Positions 43,262 to 43,328 of a DNA stretch of 64,000 nucleotides are shown in pieces; within the stretch, counting starts at the first letter, position 1, and every line of letters begins with the position of its first letter. The translations under genes and the position numbers were made by a program. The stretch is from a virus (Duplodnaviria > Heunggongvirae > Uroviricota > Caudoviricetes), in IMG/VR virus record IMGVR_UViG_3300021066_000001. The stretch is one strand, 5' to 3'. The notes under the pieces are model-generated. The model ran no database searches. It had not been told where the DNA came from and was given only the letters and a program-made list of their open reading frames with translations.

Positions 43262-43328
43262 ACCGGGAAGTCCTAGCCTACGTGCCAACGATGGCAGCCG
43301 CGGCAATACGTCACTAGGACTTCCCGGT
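43262..43328. ncRNA. 15-bp hairpin enclosing a 16S rRNA helix-18 (530 loop) match
   Basis: perfect inverted repeat 43262-43276/43314-43328; loop CTACGTGCCA[ACGATG]GCAGCCGCGGCAATACGT. Confidence 0.7.

What the first reader, a model, noticed from the sequence alone, without database searches (positions are those of the whole stretch)
43262..43328. Hairpin carrying the 16S rRNA 530-loop sequence, antisense on the tRNA-operon strand
Seen: a perfect 15-bp stem whose 37-nt loop reads CTACGTGCCA-[ACGATG]-GCAGCCGCGG-C-AATACGT. Known: 16S nt about 511-538 in many bacteria are CTACGTGCCAGCAGCCGCGGTAATACGT (helix 18, decoding centre, psi516, m7G527). That is 27/28 identity plus a 6-nt insert that makes a 5-bp UGCCA/UGGCA hairpin. 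On the minus strand, the one mismatch becomes a G-U pair with U531. Inference: an antisense or guide-like RNA (lower stem, two target arms, upper hairpin) that blocks or directs modification or cleavage of the host decoding centre; if plus-strand, a helix-18 decoy for S12, RsuA or RsmG.
Basis: partly seen in the sequence, partly recalled or inferred. Interest (0 to 1): 0.9.

Follow-up and report, generated by a model that had tools for sequence, protein, structure and literature searches.

The report
Phage hairpin copying 16S helix 18
A giant phage carries, between two of its tRNA genes, a long hairpin whose loop is a reworked copy of the most conserved stretch of bacterial 16S rRNA; similar copies turn up in two other phages and, in mirror form, in front of bacterial RNA-repair ligase genes, so this looks like an undescribed kind of RNA element tied to the ribosome's decoding loop.

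Summary
At 43262-43328 a perfect 15-bp stem encloses a 37-nt loop matching 16S nt 511-538 at 27/28, with a 6-nt insert. None of 20,000 loop shuffles matched 16S as well. It is the only rRNA-like piece in the 389-kb phage genome, and an ENA assembly carries it unchanged.

It is not alone. IMG/VR holds two other phage hairpins with the uninterrupted 16S 515-536 sequence, both in the 16S-sense direction of their genes. Four bacterial loci carry its complement in the 5' leader of an RtcB-family RNA ligase gene; three have the whole gene, the fourth is cut by an IS. Those leaders have an insert at the same junction and the same base change as the window copy.

All neighbouring tRNAs and ORFs are on the minus strand, so the RNA made is most likely the complement of helix 18. 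The window's two departures from 16S stabilise the minus-strand fold by 5.0 kcal/mol and the plus-strand fold by 0.5.

Best reading (about 0.42): a processed stem-loop RNA that pairs with RNA exposing the helix 18 sequence. A purely structural hairpin built from captured rRNA sequence is the main rival (0.32). No guide-RNA features were found. No expression data exist.

The parts
43262..43276 (.). 5' arm (plus-strand numbering) of the perfect 15-bp stem
   Evidence: I7. The sequence is unique in the 389-kb genome. Its first five bases, ACCGG, match 16S about 501-505 in a gapped alignment.
43277..43313 (.). 37-nt loop: a reworked copy of 16S helix 18 (nt 511-538)
   Evidence: 27/28 identity plus one 6-nt gap. 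0 of 20,000 shuffles score as high. It is the only rRNA-like segment in the genome.
43278..43287 (+). Block identical to 16S 511-520 (CTACGTGCCA). On the minus strand it is the 3' arm, complementary to 16S.
   Evidence: The lineage-specific CTAC points to a source with the CUACG/CGUAG form of helix 18, which the betaproteobacteria-type 16S in L028 carries.
43288..43293 (.). 6-nt insert (ACGATG) at the 16S 520/521 junction
   Evidence: With the substitution at 43304 it stabilises the minus-strand fold by 5.0 kcal/mol. The RtcB-gene leaders have a 7-nt insert at the same junction, but they were found with a pattern that required an insert there.
43294..43311 (+). Block matching 16S 521-538 at 17/18. 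On the minus strand it is the 5' arm. The complement of 43294-43310 is the 17-nt core CGTATTGCCGCGGCTGC, shared exactly with five bacterial leaders.
   Evidence: alignment A3: the 17-nt block is invariant in all six sequences.
43304..43304 (.). C in place of U531 (G on the minus strand)
   Evidence: It restores a G-C pair in the antisense hairpin with the C opposite G517. Reverting it costs 2.9 kcal/mol on the minus strand and 0.6 on the plus. The same base is present in all five bacterial leaders. It also makes GCCGCGGC an 8-nt palindrome.
43314..43328 (.). 3' arm of the 15-bp stem
43248..43338 (-). Whole tRNA-Asn to tRNA-Asp spacer: the likely precursor fragment released by tRNA 5' and 3' processing
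   Evidence: The tRNAs are at 43339-43413 and 43173-43247, both minus. The 91-nt spacer folds as the same hairpin with single-stranded tails of 10 and 14 nt. That it is released by processing is inferred.

Best explanation
The hairpin is a remodelled copy of host 16S rRNA helix 18 (roughly nt 501-541), built into the phage's tRNA operon. It is transcribed with the tRNAs on the minus strand. RNase P and tRNA 3'-end processing cut it out as a stable stem-loop RNA of about 70-90 nt. The loop of that RNA is the complement of 16S 511-538, split into an 18-nt arm and a 10-nt arm by a 6-nt insert. I propose that it works in trans by base-pairing with RNA that exposes the helix 18 sequence, meaning nascent, unfolded or cleaved 16S rRNA. 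By binding that RNA it could hinder 530-loop folding. It could also compete with cellular RNAs that read the same signal, such as the anti-helix-18 leaders found here in front of RtcB RNA-repair ligase genes. Shown: the sequence identity, the hairpin, the gene orientation, the existence of sister elements, and that the two changes from 16S favour the minus-strand fold. Inferred: transcription and processing, pairing to 16S-derived RNA, and any consequence for the host.
For: (1) Strand. All 40 other tRNAs and the long ORFs over 20 kb are on the minus strand. A promoter-like site on the minus strand lies upstream at 44264-44236. No plus-strand promoter-like site lies upstream of the hairpin. (2) The two differences from 16S stabilise the minus-strand fold from -36.2 to -41.2 kcal/mol, but the plus-strand fold only from -35.8 to -36.3. 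The minus strand also gains a U-G pair at the top of the stem where the plus strand has C-A. (3) An independent natural element has the same design. Leaders of RtcB-family genes (L026 Pfam RtcB E 8.6e-74; L024, L126, L127) carry the complement of 16S 511-540, with an insert at the 520/521 junction and the same G opposite U531. The 17-nt core is identical to the phage minus strand. The leader is 69/71 conserved between L024 and L026, while the flanks to either side are visibly more diverged in the same alignment. In the leaders the 3' strand of the hairpin is the Shine-Dalgarno GGAG. (4) Pairing is energetically possible: loop against helix 18 duplex -53.7 kcal/mol, and leader plus helix 18 RNA ddG -23.2 kcal/mol. 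(5) Copying helix 18 recurs in phages. L059 and L058 carry 16S 515-536 exactly, inside hairpins. Forty-four chance hits to the first 16 nt extend by 0-1 nt, these two extend by 7 and 6 nt. (6) Context: an orphan abiF antitoxin-type RNA motif sits in the same tRNA array (PMC12373285), so non-tRNA RNAs are embedded there. RtcB ligases are known to repair cleaved 16S rRNA (PMC9304027), and defence nucleases that cut rRNA exist (bioRxiv 10.64898/2026.07.14.738597).
Against: There are no expression data for either strand. The element is a singleton. The closest complete relative (G001, 62% identical terminase) has the syntenic Asn-Asp spacer without it. In a nested-structure model, full pairing to helix 18 needs the 15-bp stem to open and gains only -5.6 to -7.9 kcal/mol. 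A 28-bp duplex inside a closed 37-nt loop is topologically strained. The changes that stabilise the hairpin also make the loop less accessible, which suits a purely structural role as well. The two other phage copies are sense-oriented, so one mechanism does not cover all three. The insert position shared with the RtcB leaders is partly due to ascertainment, because those loci were first found with a pattern that required an insert there. Helix 18 in mature 30S subunits is folded and protein-bound, so only immature or damaged rRNA could be a target. The phage has no RtcB gene.
Confidence: 0.42

Rival explanations
1. A purely structural hairpin. The element serves the tRNA precursor as a stable stem-loop (processing spacer, exonuclease barrier or RNase III-type site). 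Its apex happens to have been built from host rRNA or rDNA by a short templated capture. The 16S sequence as such has no function and is drifting towards whatever folds best.
For: Relatives of both other phage copies have ordinary hairpins with unrelated loops at exactly the same positions. In the L059 family the order is stop codon, hairpin, terminator. In the L058 family the hairpin sits in the linker of the gene after the major head protein. The helix 18 content is therefore dispensable there. In the window, both changes from 16S raise hairpin stability rather than preserve 16S identity. Orientation relative to transcription is mixed, two sense and one antisense, as expected for neutral capture. 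Short microhomologies (CTA, TAGG) lie at the junctions. The nearest relative lacks the element.
Against: Three independent phage captures of the same 22-28 nt of rRNA, from different host 16S types, each with the apex intact. A scan for the equally universal sarcin-ricin loop found only real 23S genes. The conserved anti-helix-18 leader of RtcB genes shows that this complement can be under selection. No other spacer in the array has such a hairpin, so it is not a general processing signal.
Confidence: 0.32
2. A plus-strand helix 18 mimic. An RNA made from the strand opposite to the tRNAs displays the 530 loop on a long stem. It acts as a decoy for a factor that recognises that loop, such as a ribonuclease toxin, an rRNA-modifying enzyme, a ribosomal protein, or an anti-helix-18 leader.
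For: L059 is clearly a sense RNA. It follows the stop codon of a gene and precedes an intrinsic terminator. Its stem has a G-U pair only on the sense strand. Its fold z-score is -5.1 for sense against -1.9 for antisense. L058 is sense relative to its genes. The helix 18 closing pairs are kept in the window copy. Defence nucleases that cut rRNA are known (bioRxiv 10.64898/2026.07.14.738597).
Against: No plus-strand gene or promoter-like site lies upstream, and no terminator follows. The insert and the U531C change disturb the 530 loop, are absent from the sense copies, and add only 0.5 kcal/mol to the plus-strand fold. The pseudoknot partner at 505-507 is buried in the stem.
Confidence: 0.08
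3. A guide RNA in the strict sense. The two arms position an enzyme on 16S for modification or cleavage, in the manner of C/D or H/ACA RNAs or an external guide sequence for RNase P.
For: A two-arm layout around an insert. ACA triplets lie 7 and 10 nt after the stem on the minus strand. GCCA follows the 5' arm.
Against: There is no C box, and a D-box-like CTGA occurs only on the plus strand. The distance from the loop to the ACA triplets is about twice the 14-16 nt H/ACA rule, and no target base is left unpaired. Bacteria and this phage lack the partner proteins as far as tested. No Rfam match.
Confidence: 0.04
4. An assembly artefact or primer contamination, from the 515F primer region.
For: The loop contains the 515F primer sequence region.
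Against: The match runs beyond the primer on both sides, is interrupted by 6 nt, and carries a substitution. The element fits exactly into a tRNA spacer without disturbing either tRNA. An ENA assembly contig contains it unchanged, although whether that assembly used independent reads is not known, and three contigs carry the neighbouring gene. The L059 copy is identical in four datasets.
Confidence: 0.02

Closest known systems
16S rRNA helix 18 / 530 loop (the source sequence)
   Same: 27/28 identity to nt 511-538, plus gapped similarity out to about 501-541. The closing pairs 513-515/536-538 are kept.
   Different: It is not part of an rRNA gene; the genome has none. The lower helix is replaced by a 15-bp perfect stem, there is a 6-nt insert at 520/521, U531 is C, and the pseudoknot partner is lost. 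It sits on the strand opposite to local transcription.
Un-named 5' leader of RtcB-family RNA ligase genes (found here: L024, L026, L126, L127; variant L129). Not in Rfam, and not found in the papers searched.
   Same: An RNA that is the complement of helix 18, with an identical 17-nt core, the same G opposite U531, an insert at the same junction followed by GGCAC, and a hairpin fold.
   Different: The leaders are cis elements. The 3' strand of the hairpin is the Shine-Dalgarno sequence of the gene that follows, the stem is only 6 bp, and the inserts differ in sequence. The phage copy has no ORF behind it and is clamped by a 15-bp stem. Common descent is not shown.
Phage hairpins L059 and L058
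   Same: Copies of the helix 18 apex in phage genomes, set on stems that are partly helix 18-derived. They lie at sites where relatives have plain hairpins.
   Different: They are exact 22-24-nt copies with no insert or substitution. They are in the 16S-sense direction of their genes, in a 3' UTR and inside an ORF linker rather than in a tRNA array.
Small stable RNAs encoded in the phage T4 tRNA cluster (species 1 and 2; recalled from my own knowledge)
   Same: Non-tRNA RNAs that sit between tRNA genes and would be released by the same processing.
   Different: No similarity to rRNA is known for them. Homology could not be tested here.
Phage RNA mimics and decoys: abiF-motif antitoxin RNA (PMC12373285), pseudo-ToxI (my own knowledge), and phage tRNAs that evade tRNA-cutting defences (PMC10264068, PMC11555353)
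   Same: Phage-borne copies of cellular or defence RNAs, located in or near tRNA arrays. An abiF motif lies 2.7 kb away in the same array.
   Different: Those copy antitoxins or tRNAs in the sense orientation. None copies rRNA, and none is antisense to rRNA.
Archaeal and eukaryotic rRNA guide RNAs (box C/D, H/ACA, U3)
   Same: Short RNAs with one or two arms complementary to rRNA.
   Different: The defining boxes, geometry and partner proteins are absent. Such RNAs are not known in bacteria.

Membership tests
16S rRNA gene or gene fragment left by an rrn operon | Further 16S sequence adjoining the match, in the orientation of the neighbouring Ile/Ala tRNAs | tested here: not met
   No SSU rRNA match in the whole genome. 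blastn against rrn operons finds only this 34-nt stretch. It lies on the strand opposite to the tRNAs.
tRNA or tRNA-like gene | Cloverleaf recognised by ARAGORN or Rfam RF00005 | tested here: not met
   nothing was called on 43262-43328.
Any Rfam 15 family | Covariance-model match | tested here: not met
   No match overlapping the hairpin at E up to 10.
Box C/D guide RNA | C box RUGAUGA near the 5' end and D box CUGA near the 3' end on the same strand, with the guide upstream of D | tested here: not met
   No C box on either strand, even with one mismatch, inside the spacer. CTGA occurs only on the plus strand.
H/ACA guide RNA | Pocket leaving the target U unpaired, with an ACA box 14-16 nt from the pocket directly after the lower stem | tested here: not met
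   The arms pair continuously across 520/521 with no unpaired target base. ACA lies 7 and 10 nt after a 15-bp stem, more than 30 nt from the insert.
Intrinsic terminator | GC-rich hairpin followed by a U run | tested here: not met
   The terminator scan reports nothing at the hairpin on either strand.
RNase III processing hairpin | About 20 bp or more of near-continuous double-stranded RNA, with cleavage shown | tested here: inconclusive
   The minus strand has 16 bp plus 4 bp across a small internal loop. The phage has no RNase III gene. Cleavage cannot be tested here.
Repeated or mobile palindromic element (REP, MITE, CRISPR repeat) | Several copies in the genome | tested here: not met
   The stem is unique in 389 kb, even allowing two mismatches on the same strand. 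It is absent from IMG/VR, INPHARED, metagenome and GTDB scans.
abiF motif RNA (RF03085) | Match to the 37-nt covariance model | tested here: not met
   The model matches 40527-40563 (48 bits) and not the hairpin.
Anti-helix-18 leader of RtcB genes (class defined here) | Complement of 16S 521-537 with G opposite U531, an insert at 520/521, then GGCAC | tested here: met
   Alignment A3: the 17-nt block and GGCAC are shared.
Anti-helix-18 leader of RtcB genes (class defined here) | The hairpin's 3' strand is the Shine-Dalgarno sequence of a downstream RtcB-family gene | tested here: not met
   No ORF follows; the next feature is tRNA-Asp. There is no RtcB gene in the genome.

The most novel reading that the evidence does not exclude
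Helix 18 and its complement form a signalling pair for ribosome damage. RtcB-gene leaders would sense the 3' product of a cut in the 530 loop at the 520/521 junction, which is where the two arms of the complement are split. That product would pair with the leader's 5' arm and free the Shine-Dalgarno sequence, switching on rRNA repair. Phages would interfere from both sides: some express the sense hairpin (L059, L058) as an inducer or nuclease decoy, and this jumbo phage expresses the antisense hairpin as a sponge or splint for the broken loop.
Probability: 0.12. Interest if true: 0.95.

Novelty: categorically new. Interest (0 to 1): 0.8.

Why it matters
No phage or bacterial RNA that copies the 530 loop or its complement is described in Rfam 15 or in the papers I could search. 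If the minus-strand RNA pairs with exposed helix 18, it would be the first natural antisense RNA to rRNA in a bacterial system. It would also add rRNA to the list of translation components, so far tRNAs, that phages copy. The by-product may matter more: a conserved leader complementary to helix 18 in front of RNA-repair ligase genes. That suggests a testable way for cells to sense broken or unassembled 16S rRNA. It also hints that the 530 loop is a natural target of ribonuclease toxins. Even under the neutral reading, repeated capture of one rRNA hairpin into phage hairpins would be a new observation about how phage genomes acquire sequence.

Tried and rejected
1. Looking for the same element elsewhere led nowhere.
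- megablast and blastn against INPHARED found nothing relevant.
- IMG/VR, metagenome and GTDB scans for the interrupted pattern found nothing like the window's stem-loop in a phage or tRNA context. The hits were real 16S genes with indel errors and chance coding matches. The exception was L024/L026, which I first dismissed and later recognised as RtcB leaders.

2. Related phages were searched through neighbouring proteins (none found) and through the terminase. The one complete relative, G001, lacks the element.

3. A 14-nt match in G001 and an 18-nt match in Brevundimonas phage MaInes are chance hits in coding sequence.

4. Sarcin-ricin loop copies in phages: only genuine 23S gene ends were found.

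5. Hairpins of the L059 and L058 relatives show no rRNA similarity.

6. Partner genes in the phage: TROVE/Ro, RNase III, RsmG and RtcB are all absent.

7. C/D, H/ACA and terminator readings were rejected.

8. Primer contamination or an assembly chimera was rejected.

9. An attP site or a remnant of an rrn operon was considered and rejected, because the fragment is short and interrupted, sits on the wrong strand and is enclosed in a perfect palindrome.

10. L128 is a chance coding hit to the 17-mer. The context of L129 was not resolved.

11. Not attempted:
- Host identification. The ENA contig is a permuted copy of the same genome rather than one with host flanks.
- Structure prediction, complex prediction and atlas searches, because the finding is an RNA.

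Full report
**1. What is there**

Window 43262-43328 is a hairpin with a perfect 15-bp stem and a 37-nt loop.
- On the plus strand the loop reads as 16S rRNA nt 511-520, a 6-nt insert, nt 521-530, C in place of U531, then nt 532-538. That is 27/28 identity to a betaproteobacteria-type 16S from a metagenome locus.
- Both strands fold far better than shuffled controls: z -5.6 and -5.9.
- The hairpin fills most of the 91-nt spacer between tRNA-Asn (43339-43413) and tRNA-Asp (43173-43247).
- Those two tRNAs, 39 further tRNAs and all long ORFs nearby are on the minus strand.
- The window belongs to a 389,331-bp virus record with 57.8% G+C, 48 tRNAs and no rRNA gene.
- Its large terminase is closest to Ralstonia phage RsoM2USA (44%), then to the PA5oct and XacN1 groups.

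**2. Is it chance or an artefact?**

A whole-genome blastn against one 16S gives only E 0.14, because the 6-nt gap is penalised. Taken as a pre-defined object, however, the loop is far from chance.
- None of 20,000 loop shuffles and none of 20,000 random 37-mers from the same genome reaches the observed score.
- The genome has only five hairpins with a perfect stem of 15 bp or more.
- This is the only rRNA-like piece in the genome, and the stem is unique.
- The match runs beyond the 515F primer region and is interrupted, so it is not primer carry-over.
- An ENA assembly contig (395,674 bp) is identical over 8.5 kb including the hairpin. Whether it derives from independent reads is not known.

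**3. Sister elements in phages**

Scans for the interrupted pattern found nothing comparable in phages. A scan of IMG/VR with the uninterrupted 16S 515-536 22-mer gave three loci.
- L060 is a real 16S gene. L059 and L058 are not.
- A control scan with only the first 16 nt returned 48 loci. Forty-four are chance hits that extend 0-1 nt into the next seven 16S bases. Two are real 16S genes. L059 and L058 extend 7 and 6 nt.

L059:
- It starts right after the stop codon of a replication-module gene.
- A 10-bp stem, with one G-U pair that exists only on the 16S-sense strand, encloses the 16S sequence.
- An intrinsic terminator follows.
- The sense strand folds at z -5.1, against -1.9 for the other strand.
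- The same sequence is present in four datasets.

L058:
- It lies in frame in the proline-rich linker of a real gene after the major head protein, again sense to the genes.

In all three phage elements, gapped alignment extends the similarity into the helix 18 stems, and the residues are typical of different host 16S types. These are therefore independent captures.

Relatives of L059 and L058 have ordinary hairpins with unrelated loops at the same positions. The closest complete relative of the window phage has the syntenic Asn-Asp spacer without the element. A scan for the universal sarcin-ricin loop found only true 23S genes.

**4. Mirror-image elements in bacteria**

Two metagenome loci from the first pattern scan, L024 and L026, turned out to be the 5' leader of an RtcB-family RNA ligase gene (Pfam RtcB E 8.6e-74).
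- The gene is on the strand opposite to the 16S-sense strand, so the mRNA carries the complement of 16S 511-540.
- There is a 7-nt insert at the same 520/521 junction and the same G opposite U531.
- The leader is 69/71 identical between the two loci, while the flanks are visibly more diverged in the same alignment.
- It folds so that the Shine-Dalgarno GGAG is the 3' strand of the hairpin.

The 17-mer of the complement that contains this G does not occur in real 16S. It was found in 4 of 401 sampled Pseudomonadota genomes, against 1 for the reversed control pattern.
- Two hits are the same leader in front of 480-aa RtcB genes.
- One is a variant leader.
- One is a chance coding hit.

The 17-nt block is invariant between the phage minus strand and all five leaders. 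None matches an Rfam family. RtcB ligases are known to repair 16S rRNA cut by colicin E3 (PMC9304027, PMC9223846).

**5. Which strand matters in the window?**

- Gene orientation says minus.
- Reverting the two window-specific changes destabilises the minus-strand fold by 5.0 kcal/mol and the plus-strand fold by 0.5.
- The base change has a simple structural reason. In 16S-sense RNA, positions 517 and 531 can form a G-U pair. In the complement that becomes a C-A mismatch, and changing A to G restores a G-C pair.
- The same fix appears in the bacterial leaders and is absent from the sense copies L058 and L059.
- The window element therefore belongs with the antisense class and is evolving as a minus-strand RNA hairpin.

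**6. How it may work**

- Pairing of the loop with helix 18 RNA is strong in isolation (-53.7 kcal/mol).
- In a nested model it requires the 15-bp stem to open, and the net gain is only about -6 kcal/mol.
- The weakly clamped RtcB leader gains -23 kcal/mol.
- In that leader complex the Shine-Dalgarno sequence pairs with the 5' strand of helix 18. Only a fragment lacking nt 511-520 would free it. This suggests a sensor for a cut in the 530 loop. That is conjecture.

For the phage RNA I favour trans-pairing with exposed helix 18 sequence, as a sponge, an assembly inhibitor or a splint. The main alternative is that it is only a stable hairpin whose apex was captured from rRNA. Evidence for that alternative:
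- the helix 18 content is dispensable in relatives of the sister elements;
- orientation among the phage copies is mixed;
- the changes from 16S increase stability rather than complementarity.

Guide-RNA readings fail their defining tests. The partner genes searched for are absent.

**7. Verdict**

The element is transcribed most plausibly as the complement of helix 18. It belongs to a small, undescribed set of helix 18 copies and anti-copies in phages and in RtcB-gene leaders. Its function is not demonstrated.

My probabilities:
- antisense-acting RNA: 0.42
- purely structural captured hairpin: 0.32
- plus-strand decoy: 0.08
- enzyme guide: 0.04
- artefact: 0.02
- other, including a DNA-level role: the remainder.

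Noticed in passing
L026:412-466 (+), L024:4432-4486 (-), L126:1468-1522 (-), L127:1496-1550 (+), L129:1472-1526 (-): A conserved 5' leader complementary to 16S helix 18 lies in front of RtcB-family RNA ligase genes and hides their Shine-Dalgarno sequence. It is not in Rfam. It is a candidate cis-regulator that could sense exposed or cleaved 16S rRNA. In L024 the gene is cut by an IS6-family transposase.
   Followed up: partly
window 40527-40563 (-): A match to the abiF RNA motif (RF03085, 48 bits; gathering score 37) lies between tRNA-Phe and tRNA-Gln, with no abiF gene beside it. The abiF motif RNA neutralises the AbiF toxin (PMC12373285), so this may be a phage-borne antitoxin mimic.
   Followed up: partly
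window 43417-43509 (-); also L041:2195-2288 (-) in the relative G001: A tRNA with the Asn anticodon GUU is 93-94 nt long and has a long variable arm, a shape normally limited to Leu, Ser and Tyr tRNAs in bacteria. It lies next to a normal tRNA-Asn and is conserved in both jumbo phages. It could be a mis-decoding tRNA or a decoy.
   Followed up: no
window 38350-38432 (-), 43603-43675 (-); L041:1270-1487 (-): Spacers in the tRNA arrays hold tRNA-like sequences that ARAGORN and Rfam do not call or score weakly. They may be decayed or atypical tRNAs.
   Followed up: no
window 1448-1522 (-): A tRNA with anticodon CUA (amber suppressor type, labelled Pyl by ARAGORN) stands apart from the arrays. Whether TAG is recoded in this phage was not examined.
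   Followed up: no
L057:1501-1534 (Brevundimonas phage Kabachok ON529852.1 223067-223100; also in Domovoi and Papperlapapp): A 34-nt stretch resembles 16S helix 43 (30/34 to a betaproteobacteria-type 16S, 26/34 to alphaproteobacteria-type ones). One change in its stem is compensatory. It lies in an unannotated intergenic region of about 450 nt, after a near-consensus promoter. The database-wide E-value is only 0.1 and the local fold is not significant.
   Followed up: partly
L115:1516-1590 and relatives L118, L121, L123: A family of phages of up to about 55 kb (longest contigs) keeps a two-hairpin module directly after the stop codon of a conserved gene of unknown function: a variable first hairpin, then an intrinsic terminator. 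Only one lineage has the 16S loop in the first hairpin.
   Followed up: partly
G000 as a whole, against ENA contig ERZ27257322 k141_1025171: The ENA contig starts at a different point of the same sequence and is 6.3 kb longer. This suggests a circularly permuted or terminally redundant genome rather than an integrated provirus, which is how the record is classed.
   Followed up: partly
window 38796-39551 (-), 48995-49945 (-): A DUF72 protein gene sits inside the tRNA array. An HD_4 (RelA/SpoT-type hydrolase) domain protein gene and a VWA-domain protein gene lie just upstream of it.
   Followed up: no
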